NCBI GenBank assembly: GCA_037130845.1
Contig: JBAXSE010000013.1
Coordinates: 1 to 38,664 of the forward strand
Length of the DNA: 38,664 nucleotides
From: Candidatus Falkowbacteria bacterium
GTDB lineage: Bacteria; Patescibacteriota; Patescibacteriia; Patescibacteriales; Patescibacteriaceae
Direction: 5' to 3'
Positions 3,489 to 37,012 of the stretch are shown one piece after another (the stretch's first letter is position 1; every line of letters starts with the position of its first letter). Below the pieces are notes generated by a model that had not been told where the DNA came from, ran no database searches, and saw nothing but the letters and a program-made list of their open reading frames with translations. The translations under genes and the position numbers were made by a program.

Positions 3489-6386
3489 TTAGTAATACTT
3501 TTTTAACAGGCTTTCAAGTATCCGCCAGTCGATTGGCTTTTGGATATAGTCGTTACTGCCGGCTTCCAGCGCTTTTTCTTTGTCGCCTGATAAGGCGTGC
3601 GCTGTTTGTGTTATTATTATTACCTCGTGGCTGATAGATCGGATTTGTCTTATGGCGGAATAGCCGTCGAGTTTGGGCAGTTTAATATCCATTAGAATCA
3701 AGTTAATATCTTGATTTGCTTGGAAGATTTCGACAGCCTCTTTGCCATCGAATGCAAATATTATATTTGCATTCGGAATGAACTTGTTTATCGCTTTTTC
3801 TAGCAGTTTTTTTGATGCTTTGTCGTCTTCGGCGATTAGTACTAATAATTTGGAATTTATTAAATCGGACGAAGCTGATGCTTGAAGATTTGATTTTGCT
3901 TCTTTGGTGTCTGGCTTTGGGATAAATGGGATGGTGAAATAAAAAGTTGACCCTTTGTCAATCTCGCTTTCAACCCATATTTCTCCTCCTAACATCTTTA
4001 CATATGCTTGGCATATTGATAGCCCGAGTCCCGTTCCTTGCGTTGCTCTAGAATTATCCACTTGAATAAATCGATCAAAAATGGCCGTTATCATATCTTC
4101 GGGAATGCCTATTCCGCTGTCCTTGATGAAGAATTCAAGGTATTCTGATTTATTTTCGGCGTCAATTTTTTTTGCGCATCCAAACTCAATTAGGCCTTCA
4201 TCGCAGTTCTTGATAGCATTTTTTATCAAGTTTAACAGTATGGCTCGTACTTTTTCTTTGTCGGTGATAACGAGATTATCTCCATCGGCAAGCGGCTTCT
4301 TGAATATAAATCCGATATTTTTTTCTTTTGCCTCAAGCTTTAACAAGTCATAGACAAAGCCGAATTGCTCATTAACTGAGGTGACGGTTTGGTTGACATT
4401 CATTTGTCCGGCCTCGATCTTAGACAGATCGACAACGTCGTTAATGATGTCTAGCAGGTGGTTGCCGCAGTTTTTTATTATATTCAAGTATTCTCGATCT
4501 TCTGTACATGTTATATTGTCCAGCAGCAAGTTCGAAAACCCTAGAATGCCGTTCATAGGCGTTCTTATTTCGTGGCTGATATTTGCCAGAAAGGCTGACT
4601 TGAGTCGGTCGCTTTCTTGCGCTTTGTTCATGGCCTTGACCAAGTCTTCTCTCATGTGAATTTGCTCTGTAACATCAATTAGAATGCCTTGAAGGACTGG
4701 GCTCTCATGCTCTGTGTTTAAGAGACGGCTGTATACGGTAGCCGAGATAATTGTGCCATCCTTGGTTCTAAACCGATAAGTGTTATTGCCGGTCAGCACT
4801 CCTTGGATGGAATCGCTTAGATTCTTTCGGCCCCTTTCTCTGTCTTCTTCGACTATCAGATTGAAGATATTCATGCCTTGGCCGATTTCTTTTTCGGTGT
4901 AGCCGAAGACTTCAAACGATTGCTTGTTGAGCAGCGTAGCATTGCCCAGACTGTCAATCTGGAAGACTACTTCCGGCATCATTTCCAGGATGTTGCTCAT
5001 TTTTTGCTGGCTGTCTTCAAGCGCTTTTTCGATTTGTTTGCGTTGCAACGACCCTCCGATCGCGATGCTGATGCCTTCCATAAAATTAATAAACTCAAGA
5101 GTGAACTGGTTTTTTCGCAAGTCGTTTAGCTGCAATAGTCCGATTATTTCTTTGTTTATTTTGAGCGGTATCAGGGCAACCGATAAATATCCTTCGTGGA
5201 TACAACGATTGCGCGGGTTGTGCCTAGGGTCTTGTTCCGGAGAGAGGCTGAGTAAATCTAGCAAATTATTGATCCATGCGCTGCCATAATTGGTAAATAG
5301 TTGGTTATTGCTGTCTGTTTTGCCAGAAACAACTAATCCGCAAGTGCATTCGAGGCTAATTTCTCCTTGTTCGTTGTGGCAAAAAGCTTGATTTTTGCTG
5401 ATGAGCGATCTTTCTGCTATGAGAAATTTATTGTCAAAGCCTTTGCTGGCGTAATAAGGGAAGTCGTGTTCTTGTTTAAGTCTTATGCCGACAGCGCTTA
5501 TGTTTAATCTCCTTTTGATAATGCTTATAATCTTGTCGATAGTTTCTTCTAGTGAATATGTTTCATTAAGGATTTTGAGTATCTCGATAAACATTTCTTG
5601 ATTGCTTTCGTGCTTTTTCCTTTTTGTAACATCTTTGCTGATACCGCGGTAGCCTAATAATTCGCCATTTTTGTCCTGTATGGGATAGCCATTAGTCAAG
5701 AAACAGACGGGCTGTCCATTCTTATGAAGATTCCAATTCTCTAAATCAACTATGGCTTTTTTTTCTGCTGCGATGTTGTTTAGCACTTCTTTGATGCGAG
5801 CCTGTTCATTCTCCGGCATCAGATCATAGAGCGTGATGCCAATAATCTCGTTAGGTGAATACCCTAATGTATCTTCTATTTGTTTTGAACAGTAAGTGTA
5901 TTCCGAGTTTGAGTTTATCTCCCAGGCTATATTGGATGAACTAAGGACGATGTCCTTAAACCGTTGCTTGCTTTCTTGCAGCTCAAGCTGCCTCCTTATT
6001 TCCGATGTCATATCCCGAGATACAATTTGAACAAATTCGATTGCATTGCCGTTATAAATCGGTGACATAGTTGAACTGACCCACGCAATTGTGGTGTCTC
6101 CTGAGTTGATTGGCCTGTAGTTGGCTTTTGTAACAATGCCTTCTAGGCATTTGTTGAAGATTTCTCGCATATGGCCGGCAGTATCTACTTGGAAAAACGG
6201 CAACTCATAAAAGAGCTTGCCAATCAAGCTATTTTCGCCGTTTTCTTGCGTAATGGCTATTGCTTTTGAATTACAGGTAATAATTATCTCATTTCTATCG
6301 ATAATAAATATGGCGTCAGAGCTATTGAGAAAGTAATTTTGATACAGTTTGCTTAGCTCGGCTTCTCCCGGTGAGTCGTTTTTCAT
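3489..6386 (-). CDS. cytoplasmic multi-PAS hybrid sensor histidine kinase / response regulator (965 aa)
   Basis: H-box SHEIRTPMNGILG; HATPase motifs (DSGIGIP, GTGLGL); C-terminal receiver domain (LVLIAEDD...MDIKLPKLDG...); no TM segments; several PAS-like blocks. Confidence 0.85.
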   Translation of the reverse strand: MKNDSPGEAELSKLYQNYFLNSSDAIFIIDRNEIIITCNSKAIAITQENGENSLIGKLFYELPFFQVDTAGHMREIFNKCLEGIVTKANYRPINSGDTTIAWVSSTMSPIYNGNAIEFVQIVSRDMTSEIRRQLELQESKQRFKDIVLSSSNIAWEINSNSEYTYCSKQIEDTLGYSPNEIIGITLYDLMPENEQARIKEVLNNIAAEKKAIVDLENWNLHKNGQPVCFLTNGYPIQDKNGELLGYRGISKDVTKRKKHESNQEMFIEILKILNETYSLEETIDKIISIIKRRLNISAVGIRLKQEHDFPYYASKGFDNKFLIAERSLISKNQAFCHNEQGEISLECTCGLVVSGKTDSNNQLFTNYGSAWINNLLDLLSLSPEQDPRHNPRNRCIHEGYLSVALIPLKINKEIIGLLQLNDLRKNQFTLEFINFMEGISIAIGGSLQRKQIEKALEDSQQKMSNILEMMPEVVFQIDSLGNATLLNKQSFEVFGYTEKEIGQGMNIFNLIVEEDRERGRKNLSDSIQGVLTGNNTYRFRTKDGTIISATVYSRLLNTEHESPVLQGILIDVTEQIHMREDLVKAMNKAQESDRLKSAFLANISHEIRTPMNGILGFSNLLLDNITCTEDREYLNIIKNCGNHLLDIINDVVDLSKIEAGQMNVNQTVTSVNEQFGFVYDLLKLEAKEKNIGFIFKKPLADGDNLVITDKEKVRAILLNLIKNAIKNCDEGLIEFGCAKKIDAENKSEYLEFFIKDSGIGIPEDMITAIFDRFIQVDNSRATQGTGLGLSICQAYVKMLGGEIWVESEIDKGSTFYFTIPFIPKPDTKEAKSNLQASASSDLINSKLLVLIAEDDKASKKLLEKAINKFIPNANIIFAFDGKEAVEIFQANQDINLILMDIKLPKLDGYSAIRQIRSISHEVIIITQTAHALSGDKEKALEAGSNDYIQKPIDWRILESLLKKYY

Positions 6387-10083: not shown

Positions 10084-11499
10084 ATGGCAGAAGGCAACAA
10101 AGCCAAGGGCATAGTCAAACCTGAGCGTCCGGGAGGATTCCTGGATTTTTTACCGGCCGATTATCTGGCGCGGGAAAGAATCTTTGGCATCATAGCAAAA
10201 GTTTTCCGGTCTTATGGCTACGATCCGATCGAAACACCGATGGTGGAATTTGCAAAATCCCTTGTCGGCGAAGACGAAACATCGAAAAATATATTCTATA
10301 TTTCCAACAAGAATAAGAATATGACGCAAGAAGGGCAGTTGGGTTTGCGTTTTGACCACACTGTACCCTTTGCCAGATTGTTAGCGGCTAATCCATACAA
10401 CGCCGACACTAAAGAAGGCATTAAACTGCCTTGGCGCCGTATGGTGGTTGGTCCGGTGTTCAGGGGCGAAAGTCCGCAGAAAGGGCGTTACCGCCAGTTC
10501 TATCAATTCGATGTCGATATAGTCGGAGTTTCTTCCATGATGGCAGATGCTGAGATTGTGGCTATAATCTATGAAACTCTGACAGCTTTAGGGCTTGATG
10601 ATTTTGTAATCAAGATTAATAATCGCAAGTTATTAAATGGCTTGGCGGAATTATTGGATGTCCACGATAGGGCGGAAGTAAATCGAGATGATATTACCAA
10701 GGCTATTTTTAGAATCTTGGATAAATTGGATAAAATCGGCCTGGATCAGGTATTGTTTGAATTAACGCAAGAGCCTGACAGCATCTTCGATCCGGCGCCT
10801 AATTTATCGTCAGAGGCTGGAGAAAAGATCAAATCTTTTATTAATATCGATGGTGACAACTACGAGAAATTAATAAAAGCTAAAACAGTCTTTGCGGGTC
10901 TAAGTATCGCCGAAGACGGCATAAAGGAATTAGAGCAGATCTTAGGATTTACAGCTGATCTCGGCGTTCCGAGCGATAAGGTGTTAGTTGACTTTGGCGT
11001 TGCTCGCGGGCTGGATTATTATACCGGTCCGGTGATGGAGACAAGTTTGCTGACTGCGCCGGAATTCGGCAGTGTTTTCTCGGGAGGCCGTTACAACAAT
11101 CTGATGGAACGTTTTACAGGACAAGAATTGCCCGCGGTCGGCGCGTCTATCGGAGTCGATAGATTATTTGCCGCCTTAAGGCAGCTTGGTTTGTTGGACG
11201 TTAGTCGGGCTACCATTACCGATGTTTTGGTAATGCGCATTGCGGACAATCTTGATAGTGAATATCTGGAAATCGCCAAGATAATCAGGCGCTGTGGCCT
11301 GAATACGGAGGTTTCTATGCTTGAAGACAGGACTTTTAAGGCTCAATTCAATTTTGCGTTGGGTCGTGGCGTTAAATACGCCATTATTTACGGAGAAAAT
11401 GAATCAATCAAGCGCACAATCCAGATTAAGAATCTAAGCACTCGAAAACAGACAGAAATTAATTTTTCCGATTTGGAAATATATTTTAATAATATTTAA
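10084..11499 (+). CDS. hisS: histidyl-tRNA synthetase
   Basis: class II aaRS motifs RFDHTVPFAR, ESPQKGRYRQFYQ (identical core to E. coli HisRS), GGRYNNL, plus C-terminal anticodon-binding domain. Confidence 0.9.
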   Translation: MAEGNKAKGIVKPERPGGFLDFLPADYLARERIFGIIAKVFRSYGYDPIETPMVEFAKSLVGEDETSKNIFYISNKNKNMTQEGQLGLRFDHTVPFARLLAANPYNADTKEGIKLPWRRMVVGPVFRGESPQKGRYRQFYQFDVDIVGVSSMMADAEIVAIIYETLTALGLDDFVIKINNRKLLNGLAELLDVHDRAEVNRDDITKAIFRILDKLDKIGLDQVLFELTQEPDSIFDPAPNLSSEAGEKIKSFINIDGDNYEKLIKAKTVFAGLSIAEDGIKELEQILGFTADLGVPSDKVLVDFGVARGLDYYTGPVMETSLLTAPEFGSVFSGGRYNNLMERFTGQELPAVGASIGVDRLFAALRQLGLLDVSRATITDVLVMRIADNLDSEYLEIAKIIRRCGLNTEVSMLEDRTFKAQFNFALGRGVKYAIIYGENESIKRTIQIKNLSTRKQTEINFSDLEIYFNNI

Positions 11500-11513
11500 T
11501 TTAGGAGTCAGAC

Positions 11514-13169
11514 ATGGAAAGGACTATTAGTCTAGATGGTCGCACTTTAACGCTGCAAGACGTTGTCTTGATAGCTCGCGGCTATCGCGGCCAAGACGGA
11601 CATCAACATTATCCATATGTTGAGTTATCCGAACAAGCACAAGCAGATATTGGCAGTTTTCGCCACGGCCTTGATCTTCGGATCGCGGCTGGCGATATTA
11701 TCTACGGTGTCAATACCGGTTGCGGTGTCAAGAAAGGCACTATCATTGATCAGAAAGAGATCGATGCCTATCAGGCTCATTATATTCCGGCGCATTGTGT
11801 CGGTTATGGCGAACCTTTTGATGAAGAAATTGTCAGAGCCGCTCTTGTTTTGCGGGTCAACTCTTTCGCCTTGGGAAATTCCGGAATCAGGCTGGAAACC
11901 TGCAATAAATTGTTGGAAATCTACAACAAGGGCGTGATTCCCTTTGTACCCGAACAGGGTTCGGTGGGCTCCAGCGGTGATTTGTGCCCGTTGGCTCATG
12001 TTGCGGCAGTCATTACTGGCGTCGAAGGACAACAAGCATTCTACCACGGCAAATTGATGCAAGCGGCAGAAGCTTTGTCGCTTGCCGGCATCGATCCGAT
12101 AGTATTAAAAGCCAAAGAAGCGATGGGCTTGACTAACGGCGCAACCTTAACTTTAGCCATGGGCTTGCTTGCTATTCATGATAGCAAAAAATTAATAGCG
12201 TATTCCCATATGGCGGCAGCATTGTCGCTTGAGGCGATCCGCGGTGAAAAAAACGCCTTTGACCCCAGAATCCACGAGGCCAGAAAGAACCAGCATAGCG
12301 CCAGAGTAGCGAAAATCATTCGTGACCTGACCAGCGGTTCAGACCGCATGACTACGTCAGCTAGAGATGTCTGTTTGACGGATGAGAAGAAATCGAAGAA
12401 ATATCAGGACGATGCTAAATCAAGGCCGACTCCTCGGGTCCAGGATGCCTATTCTTTCCGCGCCTATGCCCAGGTGGCAGGACCGGTGGTTAAAGCATTC
12501 GAGTATGCCGAAGAAGTCTTTTTGTCGGAAATGAATGCAGCTACAGATAATCCATTGATCTTTAAGAGCGGATTCGGGGAGAATGAAAGGTTTGAAGCGA
12601 TATCCGGTGGCAATTTTCATGGCGAACCGTTGGGTCAAGCAGCTGATTTTCTTAAGATTGCCATCCAGCAGTTGGCCAACATTTCCGATCGGCGTTTCTA
12701 TGCCTTGACGATGTCCACGACCAGCTATGGCTTGCCGGATGATTTGGCTGGAGCAATTAATCGCGATCTGAATACGGGATTAATGATCCTCCAATACACG
12801 ACAGCTGCTTTGGTATCAGAGAATAAAGCATTATGTTATCCTTCGGTTATCGATTCTATTCCGACTTCTGCAAACCAAGAAGATTATGTCAGTATGTCAA
12901 CTATCGGCGCGCGTAATCTGCGCAAGGTGATAAAAAATACTTATGGCGTTATCGGTGCCGAATTATTGGCTGCTGCCCAGGGCATATCACTGACCGAAGA
13001 CCAGCTAAGGCCGCTCGAGCTTGATGGCTTGGGAAGAGAAACTACCTTTGTTTATAAGAAGGTCCGCCAGGTAGTCGCCGCAATGTATGAAGATCGTTAT
13101 ATCCACAAAGATTTCAAGGCTTTGGTCGATTTCATGATAAAGTCTGATCCTCAGGATTTCTTACCATAG
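11514..13169 (+). CDS. hutH: MIO-dependent aromatic amino-acid ammonia-lyase family (histidine ammonia-lyase-like)
   Basis: GSVGSSGDLCPLAH (MIO-forming triad region, here Ser-Ser-Gly), NTG.G, overall HAL/PAL architecture; contains an extra charged insert EKKSKKYQDDAKSRPTPR. Confidence 0.75.
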   Translation: MERTISLDGRTLTLQDVVLIARGYRGQDGHQHYPYVELSEQAQADIGSFRHGLDLRIAAGDIIYGVNTGCGVKKGTIIDQKEIDAYQAHYIPAHCVGYGEPFDEEIVRAALVLRVNSFALGNSGIRLETCNKLLEIYNKGVIPFVPEQGSVGSSGDLCPLAHVAAVITGVEGQQAFYHGKLMQAAEALSLAGIDPIVLKAKEAMGLTNGATLTLAMGLLAIHDSKKLIAYSHMAAALSLEAIRGEKNAFDPRIHEARKNQHSARVAKIIRDLTSGSDRMTTSARDVCLTDEKKSKKYQDDAKSRPTPRVQDAYSFRAYAQVAGPVVKAFEYAEEVFLSEMNAATDNPLIFKSGFGENERFEAISGGNFHGEPLGQAADFLKIAIQQLANISDRRFYALTMSTTSYGLPDDLAGAINRDLNTGLMILQYTTAALVSENKALCYPSVIDSIPTSANQEDYVSMSTIGARNLRKVIKNTYGVIGAELLAAAQGISLTEDQLRPLELDGLGRETTFVYKKVRQVVAAMYEDRYIHKDFKALVDFMIKSDPQDFLP

Positions 13170-13326: not shown

Positions 13327-13995
13327 ATGCAAAAAAATACCTGCACTTATAGGAAAATAAATAACCTTGATAATGCCGCAGAAGCTGAAAAGTTAGCGCG
13401 TTGCTATCAGGAGGTTTTTGCCGGTTATCCTTGGAATGAATACAAGAAATGCCCTGATTGCGGGGTGAGGTGGGGCAAAGAAGATGCGCCGGAAGATGGA
13501 CGTTGTTCAAAATGTGATGCTACTCCCGTTCTTGTTGATTTCTGGGCGAAGGAGGATGTTATAAATGATTTCCAAAAACAATTACAAAGCTCCAGCGGCG
13601 TGTTGTGTGTTGCGGTTAATTCCAGAGACGAGATTACGGGTTTCTGTTCCGGTTACGAAACTACTCCCGAAGAATTGGAAAAGCATTTGCAGCTTCCTGA
13701 ATTGGCCAAATGGTTGCGTTGTTATTTTCCCAATGGTGTTAGATTCGGTTATCAAGATGAGATCGGCGTTCTCGATTCGTATCGAGGGCAGAAGATTGCT
13801 ACCGAACTTTTCAAGAAAAGAATGGAAGATTTTAAGGCAAGTGGTTTGGATATAGCTGTATTAAGAACCAAGACTATGCCTCCGACCATAACCTTTAAAT
13901 GGTACCCTCGATTGGGTTATAGTGTCATCCAATGTTATCATGATGATGATTGCCGTGTAATTATGGCGACAGAAATCAAGAGTATTCAGTTGTAG
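13327..13995 (+). CDS. GNAT-family N-acetyltransferase with an embedded CxxC...CxxC zinc ribbon
   Basis: GNAT motif A GVLDSYRGQKIATELF; insert CPDCG...CSKCD. Confidence 0.6.
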   Translation: MQKNTCTYRKINNLDNAAEAEKLARCYQEVFAGYPWNEYKKCPDCGVRWGKEDAPEDGRCSKCDATPVLVDFWAKEDVINDFQKQLQSSSGVLCVAVNSRDEITGFCSGYETTPEELEKHLQLPELAKWLRCYFPNGVRFGYQDEIGVLDSYRGQKIATELFKKRMEDFKASGLDIAVLRTKTMPPTITFKWYPRLGYSVIQCYHDDDCRVIMATEIKSIQL

Positions 13996-14019
13996 AACAG
14001 TTGAGCTTTACATGCCGAT

Positions 14020-14094
14020 GGACGCGTAGCTCAGTTGGCCCAGAGCAATGGATTGTGGCTCCATTTGTCACGGGTTCGATTCCCGTCGCGTCCA
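14020..14094 (+). tRNA. tRNA-His (anticodon GTG), discriminator A73, no genomically encoded G-1, no encoded CCA
   Basis: manual cloverleaf: acceptor GGACGCG/CGCGTCC 7 bp, D-stem GCTC/GAGC, anticodon stem ATGGA/TCCAT with loop TTGTGGC, T-arm ACGGG-TTCGATT-CCCGT. Confidence 0.85.
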
Positions 14095-14097
14095 CGA

Positions 14098-14130
14098 ACG
14101 GCAATTATAATGATTGCCGTTTTTTATTTA
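14098..14130 (+). terminator. rho-independent terminator after the tRNA
   Basis: ACGGCAAT-tataatg-ATTGCCGT + TTTTTATTT. Confidence 0.65.
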
Positions 14131-20415: not shown

Positions 20416-20444
20416 TTTGACTCCTGGCAAGCTGTTTGCTATGG
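20416..20444 (+). promoter_or_regulatory. candidate promoter TTGACT-17-TATGGT for the NUDIX gene
   Basis: sequence pattern only. Confidence 0.3.
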
Positions 20445-20482
20445 TCAAGAGGATAGTTGTTTCAAATATTAGGAATTATCGT

Positions 20483-21016
20483 ATGAAAACATTGTCATCG
20501 ATCGTCAAGATTGTTCACAAGAACATCTGTGCCAGCCCGGAAGTCTATAAGGCTTTCCAATTGCGGGTGTCCGAAGGCGCGCCGACGCGGGAGCAAAATC
20601 CGATGTCTCATTTTTCTGTCTATTTTTTGCCCTATAATCCGTACAACAAAAAAGTATTCATTACGCATCACAAGAAATCCGGCCTGTGGCTATCGCCCGG
20701 CGGACATGTGGACGAAGGCGAAACTTTGTGGCAGACGGTTAATCGCGAGATCAAAGAGGAGTTGGGCGTGGCTGATTTTTTCAAGCTTGAGCCTAAGCCT
20801 TTCTTGCTGACCATCACGCCGGTGGCCAATGCCGCTCATGCCTGCAAAACGCATTATGACGTTTGGTATCTGGTGATTACTGACGGCCATGATTTTAGTA
20901 TCGATCCCAGAGAGTTCCATGCCACGCAGTGGATGGCTATCGACGATGCCAAAAAGATTGTCACCGATCCGCCTAATCTGCTGGCCTTGGACCGGGTGGC
21001 ACGACTGGCCAAATAA
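20483..21016 (+). CDS. NUDIX hydrolase
   Basis: Nudix box GGHVDEGETLWQTVNREIKEELGV; ATG 20483 with AGGA RBS (ORF frame opens at 20417). Confidence 0.75.
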   Translation: MKTLSSIVKIVHKNICASPEVYKAFQLRVSEGAPTREQNPMSHFSVYFLPYNPYNKKVFITHHKKSGLWLSPGGHVDEGETLWQTVNREIKEELGVADFFKLEPKPFLLTITPVANAAHACKTHYDVWYLVITDGHDFSIDPREFHATQWMAIDDAKKIVTDPPNLLALDRVARLAK

Positions 21017-24069: not shown

Positions 24070-26706
24070 ATGAATGTTGCACAATTAAACACAGAAAAGC
24101 GTCTTGCTACGGCTATTATGCCTTGGAAAGACATCAGCATCGGTTCGGCCGCTATTGTTTCTAGCACTATCGCTAATAGCGGTATTTTTACTTCTACCCA
24201 AACCTTTAAGATTCAAGTTCCGCTTAGTGTTAACGAAAGCGTAACCAGGGATTATGACGGTTATCGCTTGCCAATGGACAAGCTGGACGAAGACGGAGTA
24301 ATCCGAGTCGGCGAGAGCGTCGCCTTGGGTGATGTGCTGGTTGCCATGATTGAATATGATCCACGAGAGTATCAGCCGGAAGAAAAATTGCTCAAAGCAA
24401 TTTTTGGCGACGGTGCTACTAACGTGACCGATCGTTCGGTTACCATGTCTTTCCCTGATCCTGCTATAGTCTATAGCGTCGAAAAAAAACTCGAAGGCAA
24501 AAAAAAGCTGGTGACTGTTTATCTGGCCTTTAAACGTAAACTACGTTTGGGTGATATTCTGGTCGATAGCAAAGGTAACCAAGCAGTTGTCTCGGCTGTT
24601 GTTGCTGATAATGAAATGCCTTATCTGAAAAGCTCGCAAACCAGAGCTCAAATAGTGGTTACGCCGCTCACTGATTGCGGCGAAACGATGGTAGATCATT
24701 TGGATAAACAAAGGCTGGTTGTGGTATATGATACCGAAGATCCCAAGTTTATCCTGATAGCGCCGCCGCTTGATAGGCCAAGCAAAAATAAGAAGTGGTT
24801 ATGCAAAGATGAAGAAGCGCGTTTTGGGGCTATCGCTTGGAAAAAATTAGAACTATTGTCCGGTCAAAAGAATATCGGTTATGGCGTTCAAAGTAGATTG
24901 CGCAACGATGCCCAATTGGTGGATGGCATCAAGATCCGCCAAGAATTTATCACAAGCCTGTTGCATTACAATCTGCCGGCTGTAGCCAGAGAATTTTTGA
25001 CCGTCAAGTCTGACGATGCCAAAGGCTACGGCGATACTGTACAAGCTATTATTAATGGATGGTCTTTGCCCGCAGCGGCTGCTCCGGCTTCGCTAAAGCG
25101 CTATGAAGCGACGATCAAGGCAATGGCCTTGACTATCGGAGTCGATAACGGCAGTAGGCAAGTCGGCTTACTTGATGGCTATAATTATCCCAACCAGGAT
25201 TTGCCAGGTATTGGCGTTTCTTTGTGGGTAACTCCGCAATCAGAGATTTTGGCTCAGTCCCACGGTGAATTGACCGGTGTTGATTATATGGATGATGCTA
25301 TCAAGCAGGCTCAAGGGAAAAAGAAAACAGACAAGATAGAAGTCGGTTTGTTCAGCCAACGCATTTTCGGCCCTCTACGGGATTATGAATGCGCTTGCGG
25401 TAAATACAAGCGAGTCCGCTATAGCGGCATCGTCTGCGATCGTTGCGGTGTCTTGGTAGCGCAAAGCTCTGTGCGCAAAGAACGTTTCGGCCATATCAAC
25501 CTGGCTTTGCCTTGCGTGCATCCTTTGTTCGAAAAAGCAGTTGCCGAGTTATATAAGTCGATCGATTACACGAACACTCCGCAATATTTTGAAGAGCTGA
25601 TCGAAAAAAACTTTGATCTAGAAAAAGCCGATTATCTTTTTGAATGTTCCGAGATAATGAAAAAGTTATCGTTGCCCGAACAGCAGATTCTTAATGTCAT
25701 CCCGGTCATGCCGGCCGGTTGGCGTTCCGATTGGATGTCTTATACTAGCAGTTGGACAATGGATTTAAATTATCTATATAGCAGATTAATGACTCGTAAC
25801 AATCGATTGACTCGATTAATCGACATCAAAGCTCCTTGGATGATTATCTCCAATGAATATCGAATGCTACAAGAGGCTTTGTCTGAATTATTTAATTGCA
25901 CTCATTTGGGGAGTGAGACTCCGCCTGTCGGATTGATCCATAGCCTGCAAGCAGCCGGTCGCAATCTTTATGACAAAAAGGTTAGTTATTCCGGACGTGC
26001 GCTGGTTATCCCAGATGACCGCCTGGCAATCGACGAATGCGTTTTGCCTAGAACTCTGGCAGTCAGATTGTTTGAGCCTTTTGTGCTTCAGCGCTTGATG
26101 GCATCGCCGCCGGAAACTCCTTGCGACCCGATTTGGGACGATTCTTATCCGGATCTGCCTCCTATCTTGGCAGATGTAGTAGTAGATATTGCCGCTGGCA
26201 ATAAGACTACAGTCGATCTAAAGAAGATTGATGAAGATGAAGCTAGAGCTTATCCGGGCTATACCTACAAGACGGCTAGTGGAATGGTTAAAAATAACCA
26301 CCCCGAAGCATTGGAAAAGCTGGAAGCGATTGTTGGCGATAGGGTTGTCCTATTGAGCTCTGTCAGTCAGATAGAATTTGCCGGTTTTTGTCCACGTTTA
26401 AGTAACGAAGAAGTCATCAGACTTCATCCGCAGGCTATTAAGCTTCTTGGTATTTCTCTGGGTAAGGCTGGCAAGGCGTTAGTCTATCTACCCTTGTCTG
26501 ATGATGCTCAAGCGGAAGTCAAAGGTGTTATGTGCGGCCAAGAATGGTCGTATGTTCCTCAGACTCCGAGCGTTGGATATAGCTCTGTTCTTAATAGTAA
26601 TCTCAAGCATCTTGTTTCTAATCCTTGGTTGGATCAACCGGAGCCGGAAACCTGCAAATGGTTGCTATCCTTAAATGATCGATTTTTGCTCAATTATAGC
26701 AAATAG
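24070..26706 (+). CDS. catalytically inactive RNA polymerase beta(C-terminal)/beta-prime(N-terminal) fusion paralog (clamp + zinc-binding-domain module)
   Basis: N-half matches RpoB C-terminus ([17 protein letters not shown] ~ [36 protein letters not shown] ~ [29 protein letters not shown] ~ LTVKSDDVNG). C-half matches RpoC N-terminus ([31 protein letters not shown] ~ [44 protein letters not shown] ~ [40 protein letters not shown] ~ [37 protein letters not shown]...LFEPFV ~ RVDYSGRSVI...LFKPFI). NADFDGD is replaced by ISLGKAGK. Confidence 0.85.
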   Translation: [878 protein letters not shown]

Positions 26707-32945: not shown

Positions 32946-33129
32946 CGTAACTAATCAACCTTGGACCTTGACGGATTTTTGAAAGGGGGATAATATAGTG
33001 TTATATTTACACTAAGTAAAAATGCTATTGACATCGCTTAGGTAAAGTGTTTAGATAGGCTCATTATTACGATAATAAAAAGCTAATAATAGCATAAAAT
33101 TGTTCATTAATATATTTGCGGAGGATAAA

Positions 33130-33807
33130 ATGGAAAGGTCTAATAGAGTAATTATCCCGGGTTTAGGGACTATTCTCAGGCTTAAGATCGCTAGCATGCA
33201 TGTCGATGCGGAAAACGGCTTTGCGCCCCTGTGTCCGTTGGAACTGCCGGTACCGGACGGCCAGAATATTGTACACGAGCTGATAGCTCAAAATAACTTC
33301 GCCCGCTATCTGGTAGGCAGCAAAGAAGGACACTCGGACCATCCCCAATGGGCGGCCACCGAGAGCGAGCCGGCCTTTACGCCGATGACGGGCTATCCCA
33401 ATATGAATCGGCGTTGGAATGTGCATTGCGCTATCGGTACCTATGGCGGACAATTGCTGGACGGACTGCCGCCGATTAGCGGCTATGATTTTATGGTCTG
33501 GAAGGGCATTGAAGATGATATGCATCCCTATGGGGCTTGCTATCACGACCTGGCCAAGAAGCTGTCTACCGGGCTGATAGAATGGCTGACCTGCCAGAGA
33601 ATCTCGACAGTGATAGTGGGTGGTCTGGCGACTGATTACTGCGTGCTGGAAACAGTCTTGGAATTATTAGAGGCTGGTTTTGAAGTAGTAGTCAATCTGG
33701 GAGCTTGCCGCGGTGTCGCAACAGACACGACAGACACAGCTATCAAAAAGATGATTAAGCACGGCGCGATTATTATCCAGTCCAGCCAAGAACTAACGCT
33801 TGTCTAA
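33130..33807 (+). CDS. pncA: nicotinamidase (isochorismatase-family)
   Basis: HVDAENGF (VDxQNDF-type) motif, catalytic Cys in GLATDYCV, conserved Lys region; GGAGG RBS before ATG 33130. Confidence 0.75.
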   Translation: MERSNRVIIPGLGTILRLKIASMHVDAENGFAPLCPLELPVPDGQNIVHELIAQNNFARYLVGSKEGHSDHPQWAATESEPAFTPMTGYPNMNRRWNVHCAIGTYGGQLLDGLPPISGYDFMVWKGIEDDMHPYGACYHDLAKKLSTGLIEWLTCQRISTVIVGGLATDYCVLETVLELLEAGFEVVVNLGACRGVATDTTDTAIKKMIKHGAIIIQSSQELTLV

Positions 33808-33947
33808 GGGCACGATCCATCGCAAAGTCAAACAGGGGAAAGCCAGCCTTTCCCCCTACTCAAGTGGCGCTGAAAGTTTCGGCGCCAGCTGTCTAGGCAG
33901 TTCTTTAAAATTGAATAATCAAATTGTTATATTTATCAGGAGTAGAC

Positions 33948-35222
33948 ATGTATTTACCATCAAGTTTGTTCAGCTACAAGCAGGACAAAGGCATCATCCA
34001 AACGCTCATGGATGTGGACTTCTATAAGTTCACTATGGGGCAATTGGCCTTTAAGTATTATCGCAATGTGCAAGTGACCTTCAAGTTCACCAATCGCAAT
34101 AAGAATGTTAAGCTGGCCAAGATTATCGATATCGCCCGTTTGCGTGAAGAGCTGGACCATTGCCGTACCCTAAGCTTCAAGAATTCGGAGATCCATTATT
34201 TGCGCGGTACTAATGAGTATCAGCATAGGATGTTCGAGGAAGATTACTTGCAGTTCTTGGCGACCTTGCGTTTGCCAGATTATGAGCTGGAATTTGTGGG
34301 AGATGAAATTTGGCTGACCTTTACGGGCTTTTGGCCGGAAGTGACATTGTGGGAAACCCTCGCCTTGTCGATTATCAACGAGCTCTATGTTCGTGCCATG
34401 TTAGGCAAGGATACTAGCGCTTGGGAACGCAACTACGCTGTCGGAGTCACCAGGTTGTATGAGAAGATTGAAAGCTTGCGCGAATATCCGGAATTAGTCT
34501 TCACTGATTTCTGTACCCGTCGCCGTTTTAACGGCCCGTGGCAGGGATACTGCATCGAGACGACCGTGCGAGAATTACCCGGGCAGTTCCTGGGCACTTC
34601 CAACGTGATGTTCTCTCAGCAATTGGCAGACCACAATTTCGTCCCTATGGGCACATCCGCTCATGAACGTGATATGGTGTTGGCTGCTTTGCAGTTCAAT
34701 AGCGATGTGGGCATCCTTAATAGCCTCTGGCAGAGCGCGGATGAATGGTACAATCAATATGGCGAAGGCCTGTCTATCTTTTTGCCCGATACCTTCGGCA
34801 CCGATGCCTTTTTCGCCCAATTCGGGTCGGCTCGAGCCAAAAAATGGAAGGGCTCGCGGCAAGATTCCGCTGATCCATATGCCTACGGCAGAAAGTTGAT
34901 CAAGTATTATGAAGGCTATGAGATTGATCCACGAAATAAAATGTGCATCTTTAGCGATGGCTTGACGCACGAATTGATGATTTGTTTGCATATATATTTC
35001 CATCGGCAGCTCAAAGATGGTTATGGCTACGGCACGCATTTCGGCAACGACTTGCTGGTTCCGCCTTTGCCCATTGTGGTCAAAGTCGACAGCGTCAACG
35101 GCAATCCGGCTGTCAAGCTTTCTGACAATCTGGCCAAAGGCATGGGATTGCAGACTGAACAAGAGCGTTACAAAAGGATATTTGGCTACACGCGTGATTT
35201 CAGACAAGAATGTGTTGTATAA
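33948..35222 (+). CDS. pncB: nicotinate phosphoribosyltransferase
   Basis: N-terminal LMDVDFYKFTMGQ (TDxYKLTM signature), overall NAPRTase length; AGGAG RBS before ATG 33948. Confidence 0.85.
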   Translation: MYLPSSLFSYKQDKGIIQTLMDVDFYKFTMGQLAFKYYRNVQVTFKFTNRNKNVKLAKIIDIARLREELDHCRTLSFKNSEIHYLRGTNEYQHRMFEEDYLQFLATLRLPDYELEFVGDEIWLTFTGFWPEVTLWETLALSIINELYVRAMLGKDTSAWERNYAVGVTRLYEKIESLREYPELVFTDFCTRRRFNGPWQGYCIETTVRELPGQFLGTSNVMFSQQLADHNFVPMGTSAHERDMVLAALQFNSDVGILNSLWQSADEWYNQYGEGLSIFLPDTFGTDAFFAQFGSARAKKWKGSRQDSADPYAYGRKLIKYYEGYEIDPRNKMCIFSDGLTHELMICLHIYFHRQLKDGYGYGTHFGNDLLVPPLPIVVKVDSVNGNPAVKLSDNLAKGMGLQTEQERYKRIFGYTRDFRQECVV

Positions 35223-35240
35223 TTTAACTCGGAGTTTAGA

Positions 35241-36149
35241 ATGATAGTAGAAAGAAGGAAGTTCTATGGTCTGAACGGAGTGATCCAGGAAGACCGTGAG
35301 CGGTTTAAGCATATTCCTTTGTTGGAATTCTCTAAGGAAGTTATGAATAGTTTTTCTCTTGCCAGTACAAAGATACGCGACAAGGATGATCTAGAGAAAG
35401 CGGTAGCTGATATTTATTGCAAATGGACGGCAGGCTATGGTTATTATGGCGATGTCATCAATGTTAGCTGTTTTATTGCTGACGACCATTGTTATCTGCA
35501 AGTAAATTATATCGCTCGTTTGGCTTTTCCCAAGCCGAATATGGCCTCCGACCTGGTGCCTATCGTGATTGATAATCGCGGCTATGCCTTTCTGATTGCC
35601 ATTACCCGCAAATACAATCCCGGTAAAGGCGGACTTGCCTTGATAGGCGGCTTCCGAAGCGTGATCAAGAATCGCATGGAAACGTCAGTTGAAGCAGCAA
35701 TGCGAGAGGCTAGTGAAGAAGCAGTCGGTCTTGATCTAGAGTATATAGTTAATTGTCACGATGGGATATATTCTAATATAACTCCCCAAAACAGTCAGGC
35801 GATACTAGTGCTGGGCCTGCGTCATGAGATTGTCGGCGGCATCTGGCAGCAGGTGGTGAATCTGGAGTGGTTGGGTACTTATCGTACTGCTCCGGATCGA
35901 GATGAATCATACATCACTCGGCAACGAGTCGATATAACTGATGCTTATGTCCTGCCGATTCGAGTTGATCGGCTGTTGACCAAAGCAGAAATCGCCACTT
36001 GGTTTAGACCGGGCGATGATGCTGAAACGGTCGAAATTATCCGGATTGACGATGGCTACGAGCCTGCTTTTGTCTTTAACCATCATAGTGTCATCTTCAA
36101 GGAAGCTTGGAAAAAGATCGCGAATGAAGTGGCCGTTCTCTATATGTAA
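35241..36149 (+). CDS. two-domain protein: unknown N-terminal domain + C-terminal NUDIX hydrolase (likely ADP-ribose/NAD-related pyrophosphatase given context)
   Basis: Nudix box GGFRSVIKNRMETSVEAAMREASEEAVGL; GGAG RBS. Confidence 0.6.
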   Translation: MIVERRKFYGLNGVIQEDRERFKHIPLLEFSKEVMNSFSLASTKIRDKDDLEKAVADIYCKWTAGYGYYGDVINVSCFIADDHCYLQVNYIARLAFPKPNMASDLVPIVIDNRGYAFLIAITRKYNPGKGGLALIGGFRSVIKNRMETSVEAAMREASEEAVGLDLEYIVNCHDGIYSNITPQNSQAILVLGLRHEIVGGIWQQVVNLEWLGTYRTAPDRDESYITRQRVDITDAYVLPIRVDRLLTKAEIATWFRPGDDAETVEIIRIDDGYEPAFVFNHHSVIFKEAWKKIANEVAVLYM

Positions 36150-36165
36150 GCAAATTGATTATTCA

Positions 36166-36200
36166 CAGTCGACGGCTAACACGACCGTCGACTATTTATC
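36166..36200 (+). terminator. terminator hairpin
   Basis: AGTCGACGG-ctaacacga-CCGTCGACT + ATTTATCT. Confidence 0.5.
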
Positions 36201-36264
36201 TAAGCGATCAAACTCTTGATCCTTTGGATAAGTAAAGTACTTTGAAAATTTATAAGGAACAATC

Positions 36265-37002
36265 ATGAAATATTTAACCGTTTTTTCGGACAGTCTGGCT
36301 GCACAAGATCTAGCCCGCCAAGTCAAGGAAAAGCATTTGCAGGTAACCGATGATCCGCAACAAGCGGATGCGATTATCGTTGGTGGTGGAGATGGCACTA
36401 TGTTGCACGCAATTCATCAGTATTGGCAATTAAAGGTACCTTTTTTAGGAATTAATTGTGGTTCGGTCGGTTTTTTATTAAACCCTGTCGAAACGGAGAG
36501 GGATCTTTTGTTGTTATTGCATCATTTCCAAGAGGTTAAATTGAACTTAATGGAAGTGCATATAGATGCTGAAAGCGATAGCTTTACCTTGCATGCCTTC
36601 AATGACGTTTATCTAAACGTCAAACCGGGCTCCATTTGTTATGGCACGATTCAAGGCGAGCATTATCCCAGACAAAAATTTCGTGGAGACGGCCTAATAG
36701 TAGCTACCGGCCAAGGTTCAACGGCCTACAATCGTAATGCCGGCGGGTCGATATTACCTTTGCAAAATGACCTGTTGGCTATTACCGGTATTTGTACTTA
36801 TGATACGCTACGCGATGTGGTGTCTCAACAGGATCTGATTATTACTATCACTCGTGGTGAGGTGACGGCCAATGCTGACAATCAGTCGGTAGCCGGTGTC
36901 AGGTCAATCGTTATCCGTCCGGGCTTTAGCACTGTCGCCTTGGGTTTCCGCCCCGACTATAATTTCGAAAGCAAAAGATATTCATTCTATAACCAATTCT
37001 AG
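36265..37002 (+). CDS. nadK: NAD kinase
   Basis: GGDGTML, NDVYLN, DGLIVATGQGSTAYNRNAGGSILP motifs. Confidence 0.85.
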   Translation: MKYLTVFSDSLAAQDLARQVKEKHLQVTDDPQQADAIIVGGGDGTMLHAIHQYWQLKVPFLGINCGSVGFLLNPVETERDLLLLLHHFQEVKLNLMEVHIDAESDSFTLHAFNDVYLNVKPGSICYGTIQGEHYPRQKFRGDGLIVATGQGSTAYNRNAGGSILPLQNDLLAITGICTYDTLRDVVSQQDLIITITRGEVTANADNQSVAGVRSIVIRPGFSTVALGFRPDYNFESKRYSFYNQF

Positions 37003-37012
37003 GAGTGCAGTA

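What the first reader, a model, noticed from the sequence alone, without database searches (positions are those of the whole stretch)
14020..14094. tRNA-His with A73 discriminator and no encoded G-1, 2.5 kb downstream of hisS
My manual fold gives a canonical 7-bp acceptor stem starting at G14020 with U at position -1 and A at position 73, with no encoded CCA. Almost all bacteria encode G-1 opposite C73, which is the major HisRS identity element. The A73/no-G-1 combination is known from one alphaproteobacterial clade, with a co-evolved HisRS. Eukaryotes have A73 with G-1 added by Thg1. Here the cognate hisS (10084..11499) is in the same window, so tRNA identity elements and HisRS co-variation could be examined directly. 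Alternatively a Thg1-like enzyme may add G-1 post-transcriptionally.
Basis: partly seen in the sequence, partly recalled or inferred. Interest (0 to 1): 0.55.

Follow-up and report, generated by a model that had tools for sequence, protein, structure and literature searches.

The report
G-1-less histidine tRNA in Patescibacteria
A real histidine tRNA gene, sitting next to its own charging enzyme in an ultra-small (CPR/Patescibacteria) bacterium, lacks the extra 5' G and the C73 base that mark histidine tRNAs in nearly all bacteria; seven related genomes share this, pointing to a bacterial lineage, distinct from the known alphaproteobacterial one, that recognises this tRNA differently.

Summary
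ARAGORN and Rfam both place tRNA-His(GUG) at 14020-14094 (+), with acceptor stem GGACGCG/CGCGUCC, U at -1, A73 and no encoded CCA, 2.5 kb downstream of hisS.

It is not a one-off. In eight lineages of one HisRS clade (named members are Patescibacteria MAGs, on contigs up to 822 kb), hisS, a histidine-ammonia-lyase-like gene and a tRNA-His are linked. N73 is A (5) or U (3), never C. N-1 is G in only 1 of 8. The stems show compensatory changes, so the genes are functional.

It is not the known alphaproteobacterial type. The tRNA has G1:C72 rather than G1:U72. The HisRS is about 35% identical to Sinorhizobium and Cereibacter HisRS and lacks their Gln118Gly change and insertions.

The HisRS has lost three contacts to G-1 and the tRNA 5' end: Tt Arg7, the Gly72-Gly73 pocket (invariant Glu here) and Tt Arg115. 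It keeps the catalytic and 3'-end contacts.

The best reading is ordinary RNase P cleavage at +1, CCA addition, and G-1-independent charging. This is inferred, not shown. Addition of G-1 by a Thg1-like enzyme, or a second canonical tRNA-His elsewhere in the genome, could not be excluded.

I rate it a new variant of a known kind, of moderate to high interest for tRNA identity.

The parts
14020..14094 (+). tRNA-His (anticodon GUG at 14055-14057). It has a 7-bp acceptor stem GGACGCG/CGCGUCC with G1:C72, a 10-nt D-loop, a 5-nt variable loop and discriminator A73 at 14094.
   Evidence: ARAGORN. Rfam RF00005 at 69.1 bits, full-length match. Sequence read directly. Stems covary across 8 lineages.
14019..14019 (+). 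Position -1 is T (U-1), not the G found in nearly all bacterial tRNA-His genes. Position -2 is A.
   Evidence: Across 8 related lineages -1 is U, G, A, A, U, C, C, A.
14095..14128 (+). 3' trailer CGAA, with no encoded CCA, running straight into an intrinsic-terminator-like hairpin (GAACGGCAATTATAATGATTGCCGTTT) and a T-run. C74 is invariant in all 8 lineages.
   Evidence: Terminator scan: 14096-14122, 12 pairs, T-rich tail. An equivalent hairpin plus T-run follows the tRNA in all relatives. Column 86 is invariant C in alignment A3.
10084..11499 (+). hisS, histidyl-tRNA synthetase (471 aa), of a divergent family whose nearest solved structures are Nostoc, Elizabethkingia and human cytoplasmic HisRS. 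Motif 2 reads FRGE-S-PQKGRYRQF, with Ser where E. coli has Arg116 and T. thermophilus has Arg115. Gln-Glu replaces the Gly-Gly pocket, and Gly replaces the basic residue before the conserved N-terminal Gly.
   Evidence: TIGR00442 at 345 bits, above the cut-off. PDB search. Alignments A1 and A2 and the residue census.
11514..13169 (+). Histidine ammonia-lyase-like gene (Lyase_aromatic family), starting 15 nt after hisS. The hisS-HAL adjacency is conserved in every member of the clade examined.
   Evidence: NF006871 at 491 bits and TIGR01225 at 474.7 bits, both just below their cut-offs. Synteny in L001, L012, L024-L029.
13327..13995 (+). 222-aa ORF with a faint GNAT (Acetyltransf_1) signal. It ends 24 nt before the tRNA, so the tRNA may be the last element of a hisS-HAL-ORF-tRNA transcription unit.
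   Evidence: ORF list. Precomputed Pfam marks. The same gene order is seen in L001. Only a weak promoter-like site lies between, at 13894-13923 inside this ORF.

Best explanation
This is most likely the working tRNA-His gene of a Patescibacteria (CPR) bacterium. The gene comes from a clade that has given up the near-universal G-1:C73 identity element.

Proposed mechanism:
1. The tRNA is transcribed with, or just after, the hisS-HAL cluster and ends at its own terminator.
2. No conserved -1:73 pair extends the acceptor helix, so RNase P should cut at the normal +1 site and leave G1 as the 5' end.
3. The trailer is removed and CCA is added enzymatically.
4. The linked, divergent HisRS charges this G-1-less tRNA. 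It has lost three contacts to G-1 and the tRNA 5' end but keeps the catalytic and 3'-end contacts. Recognition presumably relies mainly on the GUG anticodon and other body features, and tolerates A or U at position 73.

Shown here: the gene anatomy, its conservation and covariation in 8 lineages, the linkage to hisS, the HisRS substitutions, and non-membership in the alphaproteobacterial type.

Inferred: the mature 5' end, G-1-independent charging, and that this is the only tRNA-His of the genome.
For: 1. Two independent detectors agree on the boundaries: U-1, G1:C72, A73, no CCA.

2. Eight lineages of one HisRS clade carry a hisS-linked tRNA-His. N73 is A in 5 and U in 3, never C or G. N-1 is G in 1 of 8. 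All have G1:C72 and none encodes CCA. Rfam scores are 64.7-69.4 bits with the same ends.

3. N73 switches between A and U within each of three groupings of loci that share an identical 3' acceptor strand. These are window (A) with L001 (U), L012 (A) with L027 (U), and L024/L028/L029 (A) with L025 (U). This argues that position 73 is not a strict determinant.

4. The genes are under selection. 93.8% of cells are paired, 9 pairs show double changes, and the covariation score is 0.347 against 0.160 in shuffles (0 of 500 reach it). The anticodon and T stems are 100% paired.

5. The -1:73 pair forms in only 4 of 8 lineages. My arithmetic from the observed base frequencies gives an expectation of about 2.75 of 8.

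6. The cluster is chromosomal. It lies on 313-kb and 822-kb contigs next to LigA, TyrRS, PgpA and urocanase. Named clade members are Patescibacteria MAGs, and the window's HisRS is labelled Ca. Falkowbacteria.

7. HisRS residue census over 120 family members plus references:
- Ec Arg116 / Tt Arg115 is S/N/A/T/Q in all 10 clade members.
- The Tt Gly72-Gly73 pocket position is an invariant Glu.
- The basic residue before the N-terminal conserved Gly (Tt Arg7) is G/A/S.
- R113, Q118, R121 and R123 are invariant.
PMC4357726 reports that Arg115 and Arg122 bind the G-1 5' phosphate, that Gly72'-Gly73' form the G-1 pocket, and that Asp-Asp there explains the G-1 independence of Caulobacter HisRS.
Against: - No RNA data exist, so the mature 5' end is unknown.
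- Only 10-40 kb around each hisS could be read. A second, canonical tRNA-His or hisS elsewhere in these genomes is not excluded.
- Each of the three HisRS substitutions also occurs singly in enzymes that use G-1. Human HisRS has Asn at the Arg116 position. Nostoc HisRS has Ser before the N-terminal Gly. Bacteroidota and Nostoc HisRS lack a clean Gly-Gly. Only the combination is distinctive.
- The same substitutions are shared by roughly 60%-identical HisRS labelled Desulfobacterales, whose tRNA-His genes I could not retrieve. If those are canonical G-1:C73, the protein argument weakens.
- The loop holding the pocket varies in length, so its alignment is uncertain.
Confidence: 0.6

Rival explanations
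1. G-1 is added after transcription. RNase P cuts at +1, and a Thg1-like 3'-5' nucleotidyltransferase encoded elsewhere in the genome adds G-1 opposite A73 or U73, as in eukaryotes. HisRS would then still see a G-1-bearing tRNA.
For: A73 without an encoded G-1 is the eukaryotic arrangement. The HisRS is closer to human cytoplasmic HisRS than to E. coli HisRS in the PDB search. Bacterial Thg1-like proteins exist and can add G-1 in vitro (PMC3245924, PMC3061083).
Against: - No Thg1/TLP domain appears in any window ORF scanned against Pfam or NCBIfam.
- No paper in the library links Thg1 to Patescibacteria.
- Bacterial and archaeal TLPs prefer templated addition opposite C73 and act poorly on A73 (PMC3245924). 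With A73 or U73, templated addition would give U-1 or A-1, not G-1.
- N73 alternating between A and U among close relatives fits poorly with an A73-specific eukaryote-type Thg1.
- The HisRS lacks the Gly-Gly pocket and the basic residue before the N-terminal Gly that G-1-dependent human HisRS retains.
Confidence: 0.15
2. An eighth acceptor base pair is kept with a different base. U-1 pairs with A73 (G-1 with U73 in L001), RNase P cuts between -2 and -1 as for canonical tRNA-His, and the mature tRNA carries N-1 (U-1 here), whose 5' phosphate HisRS reads.
For: -1:73 can pair in the window (U:A), L001 (G:U), L024 (U:A) and L027 (A:U). In E. coli the key feature is the position of the 5' phosphate of N-1 rather than the base itself (PMC4357726, PMC9976931).
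Against: Pairing fails in L012 (A/A), L025 (C/U), L028 (C/A) and L029 (A/A). The total of 4 in 8 is close to the roughly 2.75 in 8 expected from the base frequencies. The HisRS residues that hold the N-1 phosphate are the ones that have been lost.
Confidence: 0.07
3. The hisS/tRNA-His pair is an accessory, orthogonal pair. It could be acquired, on a mobile element or phage, or dedicated to a non-ribosomal use of His-tRNA. The cell would also have a canonical tRNA-His and HisRS elsewhere.
For: - The tight linkage of a tRNA with its synthetase and a histidine-catabolic gene is unusual.
- The window also holds an odd fused RNA polymerase beta/beta' ORF with PHROG hits.
- The nearest HisRS relatives outside the clade are labelled Desulfobacterales, which hints at lateral transfer.
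Against: - The cluster sits in ordinary chromosomal context on 313-kb and 822-kb contigs, next to LigA, TyrRS and PgpA.
- Scans of viral contigs with the HisRS and with the tRNA pattern found nothing.
- No phage structural genes were seen; the PHROG hits are generic domains.
- Patescibacteria genomes of about 1 Mb rarely duplicate aaRS or tRNA genes (general knowledge).
- The arrangement is vertically conserved across HisRS of 56-74% identity.
Confidence: 0.13

Closest known systems
Alphaproteobacterial delta-G-1 tRNA-His/HisRS pair (Caulobacter crescentus; Rhizobiales, Rhodobacterales, Caulobacterales, Parvularculales)
   Same: - A bacterial tRNA-His gene with no encoded G-1 and a non-C discriminator (A73).
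- A divergent HisRS of the LR[YF]D.T[VA]P type, with an acidic residue in place of the Gly-Gly G-1 pocket.
- Probably anticodon-driven recognition.
   Different: - tRNA: G1:C72 here against the conserved G1:U72, where U72C costs about 100-fold in Caulobacter (PMC3064791).
- tRNA: N73 is A or U across the clade rather than a fixed A.
- tRNA: the D-loop is 8-10 nt rather than a fixed 9 with U20a.
- HisRS: only about 35% identical.
- HisRS: keeps Gln118-Lys119 where the alpha type has Gly-Pro, and has S/N/T at position 116 where the alpha type has Lys.
- HisRS: lacks the alpha-type insertions near motif 3 and in the anticodon-binding domain.
- Different phylum (Patescibacteria).
Eukaryotic cytoplasmic tRNA-His (A73, with G-1 added by Thg1)
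   Same: A73 discriminator, G-1 not encoded, G1:C72. The HisRS is closer to the eukaryotic enzyme than to the E. coli enzyme in sequence.
   Different: No Thg1 is evident. U73 occurs in close relatives. The HisRS lacks the Gly-Gly pocket and the Lys-Gly N-terminal contact that human HisRS keeps.
G-1-independent eukaryotic HisRS (Acanthamoeba castellanii cytosolic, Trypanosoma brucei)
   Same: tRNA-His with a Watson-Crick 1:72 pair and no G-1, with recognition shifted to the anticodon (PMC4338351, PMC3561963). Functionally this is the closest analogy.
   Different: A different domain of life with an independent origin.
(8/4) tRNA-His of alphaproteobacterial phages (Mukai et al., PMC5389517)
   Same: They lack G-1 and have A73 or U73.
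   Different: Those have an 8/4 acceptor/T-stem geometry and are phage-borne. Here the cloverleaf is the standard 7/5 in a chromosomal context.

Membership tests
tRNA (Rfam RF00005), histidine isoacceptor | Cloverleaf matching the covariance model above the gathering score, with anticodon GUG | tested here: met
   69.1 bits against a gathering score of 29, model positions 1-71 of 71. ARAGORN calls anticodon gtg. Stems covary across 8 lineages.
Canonical bacterial tRNA-His | G encoded at position -1 | tested here: not met
   Position 14019 is T. G is at -1 in only 1 of 8 related lineages.
Canonical bacterial tRNA-His | C73 discriminator pairing with G-1 | tested here: not met
   Position 14094 is A. 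The clade has A in 5 and U in 3, never C.
Alphaproteobacterial delta-G-1 tRNA-His | No G-1, and A73 | tested here: met
   U-1 and A73 in the window. Three of the eight relatives have U73.
Alphaproteobacterial delta-G-1 tRNA-His | G1:U72 wobble pair, a major identity element (PMC3064791) | tested here: not met
   G1:C72 in the window and in all 8 lineages; columns 11 and 84 are GC in 8 of 8.
Alphaproteobacterial delta-G-1 tRNA-His | 9-nt D-loop with U20a (PMC3064791) | tested here: not met
   The window's D-loop AGUUGGCCCA is 10 nt. Relatives have 8-10 nt.
Alphaproteobacterial delta-G-1 HisRS | Gln118 to Gly in motif 2, and lineage-specific insertions including one in the anticodon-binding domain (PMC4338351, PMC3064791) | tested here: not met
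   The window has PQKGRYRQF and no insertions. Sinorhizobium and Cereibacter have KPGPGRFRQF plus the insertions. Identity is 35%.
Histidyl-tRNA synthetase (TIGR00442 hisS) | Score above the equivalog cut-off, with catalytic motif 2 and motif 3 arginines present | tested here: met
   345 bits against 286.75. R113, R121 and R123 (E. coli numbering) are invariant, and GGRY is present.
G-1-dependent HisRS (E. coli, T. thermophilus and human types) | Residues that hold G-1 and its 5' phosphate: Tt Arg7 (R/K), the Gly72'-Gly73' pocket, and Arg115 (PMC4357726) | tested here: not met
   Gly, Gln-Glu and Ser respectively in the window. In the 10-member clade these are G/A/S, an invariant Glu, and S/N/A/T/Q. 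Caveat: each change occurs singly in some G-1-dependent enzymes, and the pocket loop alignment is uncertain.
Eukaryote-like Thg1-dependent tRNA-His maturation | A Thg1 or Thg1-like gene in the genome | not testable with these tools
   None in the 38.7-kb window. The rest of the genome could not be fetched.
Phage or mobile-element tRNA/aaRS cassette | Phage hallmark genes, or presence in viral contig collections | tested here: not met
   No IMG/VR hit with the HisRS or the tRNA pattern. PHROG hits are generic only. The syntenic cluster lies on 313-kb and 822-kb chromosomal contigs.

The most novel reading that the evidence does not exclude
Loss of the G-1:C73 identity system may not be a single alphaproteobacterial oddity but a widespread, repeatedly evolved state. 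The whole HisRS family to which this enzyme belongs shares the loss of the G-1 contacts: an acidic residue in the Gly-Gly pocket, no Arg116, and no basic residue before the N-terminal Gly. This was seen in all 120 retrieved members, which carry labels including Desulfobacterales, Magnetomorum, Electrothrix and several Patescibacteria. The family may therefore be G-1-independent as a whole. That would mean large parts of Desulfobacterota and the CPR charge a G-1-less tRNA-His with a flexible A/U73 discriminator. The alpha-type HisRS next to an A73, G-1-less tRNA-His in a MAG labelled Planctomycetales (L006) points the same way.
Probability: 0.3. Interest if true: 0.75.

Novelty: new variant of a known kind. 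Interest (0 to 1): 0.62.

Why it matters
G-1 is treated as the near-universal identity mark of tRNA-His. Reviews up to 2015, and the 2023 identity review, list one alphaproteobacterial clade as the only bacterial exception (PMC4338351, PMC9976931).

This lineage is independent: a different phylum, a different HisRS family, and different tRNA features (G1:C72, A/U73). It would show that this identity rule has been rewritten more than once in Bacteria.

It would also offer a natural experiment on how HisRS specificity is rebuilt, because enzyme and tRNA are encoded side by side in eight diverged versions.

Practical consequences:
- tRNA annotation and identity predictors that assume G-1:C73.
- RNase P substrate rules.
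- A possible new orthogonal HisRS/tRNA-His pair for genetic-code engineering, as was proposed for the Caulobacter pair (PMC3064791).

Tried and rejected
1. **Alternative register with G-1 opposite C73.** Rejected. It would make 1:72 a G:A mismatch and displace U8 and the D stem, and both detectors agree on 14020 as position 1.

2. **Conserved eighth base pair, -1:73 (U:A or G:U).** Suggested by the window and L001. Rejected as a rule after six more lineages, because it forms in only 4 of 8.

3. **Membership in the alphaproteobacterial delta-G-1 system.** Rejected, see the membership tests.

4. **Huge-phage fragment mis-binned as CPR.** Considered because of the fused RNA polymerase beta/beta' ORF, the NAD-salvage cluster and the tRNA plus aaRS. 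Not supported:
 - Viral-contig scans were empty.
 - tblastn hits in the phage collection were mostly bacterial rpoB/rpoC junctions at about 29% identity.
 - The hisS-HAL-tRNA cluster is chromosomal in relatives.

5. **Pattern scans for the tRNA's D-arm and anticodon arm.** These gave 3 hits in the genome collection, 5 in the metagenome collection and 0 in the viral collection. None is a close relative. All are canonical G-1:C73 except L006.

6. **HisRS loci outside the clade.** L002 (Desulfobacterales HSG2), L003 (Patescibacteria MAG) and L014 have no tRNA within reach.

7. **Key papers.** Ardell & Andersson 2006 and Wang et al. 2007 are not held in the library.

8. **Literature searches.** Searches for tRNA-His or Thg1 in Patescibacteria or Desulfobacterales found nothing relevant.

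Full report
**1. The observation**

ARAGORN finds a single tRNA in the window, tRNA-His(GTG), at 14020..14095. Rfam's tRNA model matches 14020..14094 over its full length at 69.1 bits against a gathering score of 29.

Read directly, the gene is GGACGCG-UA-GCUC-AGUUGGCCCA-GAGC-A-AUGGA-UUGUGGC-UCCAU-UUGUC-ACGGG-UUCGAUU-CCCGU-CGCGUCC-A.
- Position -1 is U (14019) and position -2 is A.
- The 1:72 pair is G:C.
- The discriminator is A (14094).
- The trailer is CGAA, so CCA is not encoded. It runs into a terminator-like hairpin with a T-run at 14096-14122.

hisS is 10084..11499, scoring 345 bits on TIGR00442 against a cut-off of 286.75. The tRNA lies 2.5 kb downstream on the same strand, after a histidine-ammonia-lyase-like gene (11514..13169) and a 222-aa ORF that ends 24 nt before the tRNA.

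The same contig, with identical tRNA and flanks, was assembled from at least five samples.

**2. What organism**

The HisRS is 100% identical to NCBI protein MEI6378793.1 from a 'Candidatus Falkowbacteria' MAG.

I suspected a mis-binned huge phage because the window holds three unusual features:
- A fused RNA polymerase beta/beta' ORF.
- A complete NAD-salvage set.
- A tRNA together with its aaRS.

The suspicion did not hold up:
- Viral-contig scans with the HisRS and with the tRNA pattern were empty.
- PHROG hits were generic.
- The syntenic hisS-HAL-tRNA cluster lies on 313-kb and 822-kb contigs beside NAD-dependent DNA ligase, TyrRS, PgpA and urocanase.
- Named members of the same HisRS clade are 'Patescibacteria group bacterium' MAGs.

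The locus is therefore chromosomal and belongs to a CPR bacterium.

**3. The feature is conserved in a clade**

A neighbour-joining tree of the 120 best HisRS homologues puts the window's enzyme in a clade of ten. For eight lineages I could read the neighbourhood, and all eight have a tRNA-His(GTG) downstream on the same strand. hisS is followed directly by the HAL-like gene in all of these, and also in a ninth locus (L026), whose contig ends just after the HAL-like gene.

Rfam confirms the ends in all of them, at 64.7-69.4 bits. The ends read as follows:

| Locus | -1 | 5' strand / 3' strand | N73 | Trailer |
|---|---|---|---|---|
| window | U | GGACGCG / CGCGUCC | A | CGA |
| L001 | G | GGACGCG / CGCGUCC | U | CGC |
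| L012 | A | GGGUCCG / CGGGCUC | A | CGC |
| L027 | A | GGGUCCG / CGGGCUC | U | CGA |
| L024 | U | GGGUUCG / CGUUCCC | A | CGC |
| L025 | C | GGGUUCG / CGUUCCC | U | CGC |
| L028 | C | GGGUUCG / CGUUCCC | A | CUC |
| L029 | A | GGGUACG / CGUUCCC | A | CUC |

In summary:
- N73 is A in 5 and U in 3, never C.
- It flips between A and U within groups that share the same 3' acceptor strand.
- G at -1 occurs once.
- G1:C72 is invariant.
- CCA is never encoded, but C74 always is.

The genes are functional. On the alignment with flanks (A3), 93.8% of cells pair and nine pairs show changes on both sides. The covariation score is 0.347 against 0.160 in shuffles, and 0 of 500 shuffles reach it. Slid controls collapse to 27-49% paired. 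The anticodon and T stems are 100% paired, with three compensatory pairs each.

A hypothetical eighth pair, -1:73, looked attractive after the first two lineages (U:A and G:U). It forms in only 4 of 8, close to the roughly 2.75 of 8 expected from the base frequencies by my arithmetic.

**4. Comparison with the known bacterial exception**

The literature describes one bacterial group without G-1: alphaproteobacteria of the Rhizobiales, Rhodobacterales, Caulobacterales and Parvularculales clade.
- Their tRNA-His has A73, G1:U72 and a 9-nt D-loop with U20a. In Caulobacter the U72C change costs about 100-fold, and adding G-1 does not help (PMC3064791).
- Their HisRS has several insertions and Gly in place of Gln118 (PMC3245924, PMC4338351).
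- In 2015 they were called 'the only exceptions ... identified to date' in Bacteria (PMC4338351).

I fetched real alpha-type hisS genes from chromid and chromosome records in PLSDB, from Sinorhizobium meliloti and Cereibacter sphaeroides, and aligned them.
- They are 35% identical to the window's HisRS.
- They read KPGPGRFRQF in motif 2.
- They carry an insertion near motif 3 and an insertion of about 20 aa in the anticodon-binding domain.

The window's enzyme, and all 120 family members, read PQ.GR[YF]RQF and have none of these insertions. Together with G1:C72, this excludes membership in the alpha-type system.

**5. What the HisRS shows**

In the T. thermophilus HisRS-tRNA complex (PMC4357726):
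- The G-1 5' phosphate is held by Arg115 and Arg122.
- Arg115 also reads G-1 and G1.
- Arg7 (Lys in other species) contacts the 5' end.
- The base sits in a pocket made by Gly72'-Gly73' of the other subunit.
- In Caulobacter, Asp-Asp fills that pocket.

The census of 120 family members plus references gives this picture:

| Position | 10-member clade | Rest of the family |
|---|---|---|
| Ec Arg116 / Tt Arg115 | S, N, S, S, A, S, T, T, Q, N | T 52, S 22, K 16, N 12, R 6 |
| Gly-Gly pocket | invariant Glu | Asp 66, Glu 14 |
| Basic residue before the conserved N-terminal Gly | G/A/S | G in the four members inspected (not counted family-wide) |
| R113, Q118, R121, R123 | invariant | invariant |

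Alpha-type and Bacteroides enzymes have P[RK]G at that N-terminal position, and E. coli has IRG. So the catalytic and 3'-end-binding apparatus is intact, while the three contacts to G-1 and the 5' end are gone.

This supports G-1-independent recognition but does not prove it.
- Human HisRS, which depends on G-1, has Asn at the Arg116 position, though it keeps Lys-Gly and Gly-Gly.
- Nostoc HisRS has Ser before the N-terminal Gly but keeps the Arg.
- Bacteroidota enzymes have a large insertion at the pocket.
- The same three changes occur in the roughly 60%-identical HisRS labelled Desulfobacterales, whose tRNA-His I could not obtain.

**6. Most likely mechanism**

- Transcription from the hisS cluster or from a promoter in the spacer. 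This is not resolved: only a weak promoter-like site lies inside the upstream ORF.
- RNase P cleavage at the ordinary +1 site, because nothing conserved extends the helix.
- 3' trimming and CCA addition.
- Histidylation by the linked HisRS without G-1. Identity would be carried mainly by the anticodon, with a permissive A/U73.

I put this at about 0.6. The rivals are:
- Post-transcriptional G-1 addition by a Thg1-like enzyme, 0.15. No such gene is in the window. Templated TLPs would add U or A opposite A73 or U73. The A/U alternation fits an A73-specific Thg1 poorly.
- Retention of N-1 as an eighth pair, 0.07.
- An accessory orthogonal pair alongside a canonical system elsewhere, 0.13.

**7. 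Novelty**

I found no report of G-1-less tRNA-His in Patescibacteria or any bacterial phylum other than Alphaproteobacteria. The closest is the (8/4) tRNA-His of alphaproteobacterial phages, with A73 or U73 (PMC5389517).

The kind of thing, a bacterial tRNA-His/HisRS pair without G-1:C73, is known. This is a separate lineage with a different identity set and a different enzyme family, so I rate it a new variant of a known kind.

The bolder reading is that the whole HisRS family is G-1-independent, so that the exception is widespread. The evidence does not exclude it, and I put its probability at about 0.3.

**8. Side observation bearing on rarity**

One hit of the pattern scan, L006, comes from a MAG labelled Planctomycetales.
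- Its tRNA-His has C1:G72, A73 and C at -1.
- It sits directly upstream of a HisRS that is 50-54% identical to the alpha-type enzymes. That HisRS has KPGKDRFREF and the alpha-type insertions.
- Next come a HisZ-like paralogue and a reverse-transcriptase-domain protein.

So non-canonical pairs also occur outside the described alphaproteobacterial clade, or that contig is mis-binned.

Noticed in passing
window 24070-26706 (+): An 878-aa ORF fuses an RNA polymerase beta C-terminal part (Rpb2_6, aa 10-199) to a beta' N-terminal part (Rpb1_1 and Rpb1_2, aa 528-676). No beta N-terminal part lies upstream. It hits phage families of unknown function (phrog_25354 at E = 8.5e-56, phrog_24349 at 1e-25). 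It aligns at about 29% identity across ordinary bacterial rpoB/rpoC junctions. It may be a minimal two-barrel RNA polymerase in a CPR genome or an embedded element.
   Followed up: partly
window 10084-13169, and L001, L012, L024-L029: hisS is immediately followed by a histidine-ammonia-lyase-like gene in all nine loci of the clade where the neighbourhood could be read. The spacing ranges from a short overlap to about 37 nt. In L025 urocanase lies just upstream. A charging enzyme, a histidine-degrading enzyme and the tRNA thus form a conserved histidine cluster. Its regulatory logic is unknown.
   Followed up: partly
L006 1305-7934 (- strand; MAG labelled Planctomycetales HKST-UBA33): A tRNA-His with C1:G72, A73 and C at -1 (Rfam 69.2 bits) lies directly upstream of an alpha-type HisRS. 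That HisRS is 50-54% identical to the Cereibacter and Sinorhizobium enzymes and has the Gln118Gly change and the insertions. It is followed by a HisZ-like paralogue and a 951-aa reverse-transcriptase-domain protein. This is either an alpha-type delta-G-1 pair outside Alphaproteobacteria or a mis-binned contig. The C1:G72 pair is unlike the described alpha tRNA-His.
   Followed up: partly
L024 10787-10860, L025 18544-18617, L028 19111-19184, L029 10330-10403: The acceptor stems of these tRNA-His genes carry conserved U4:U69 mismatches, and U5:U68 as well in three of them. Rfam marks these as non-canonical pairs. They persist across lineages whose T stems have diverged, so they look selected rather than decayed. 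They may be an identity or anti-identity feature.
   Followed up: no
window 14095, and column 86 of alignment A3: C74 is encoded in all eight tRNA-His genes, although CCA is not: position 75 is G or U. The terminator hairpin starts within 2-5 nt of the discriminator. This may matter for 3' processing, either RNase Z versus exonuclease trimming or partial CCA repair.
   Followed up: no
window 33100-38579 (+): A contiguous NAD salvage and utilisation set: an isochorismatase/nicotinamidase-like protein, nicotinate phosphoribosyltransferase, an unknown 302-aa ORF, NAD kinase, NAD synthase and a PRK/uridine-kinase-family kinase. A NUDIX hydrolase lies at 20417-21016.
   Followed up: no
window 3489-6386 (-): A 965-aa hybrid sensor kinase with multiple PAS domains, GAF, HisKA, HATPase and a receiver domain. 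This is unusually elaborate signalling for a small-genome Patescibacterium.
   Followed up: no
HisRS family, P0001-P0120: The entire roughly 56-74%-identity HisRS family lacks the Gly-Gly pocket and mostly lacks Arg116. It includes proteins labelled Desulfonema magnum, Ca. Magnetomorum, Ca. Electrothrix and Desulfobacterales. Six members (for example P0009, P0065, P0066) have regained or kept Arg at position 116. Whether their tRNA-His genes are canonical is unknown.
   Followed up: partly
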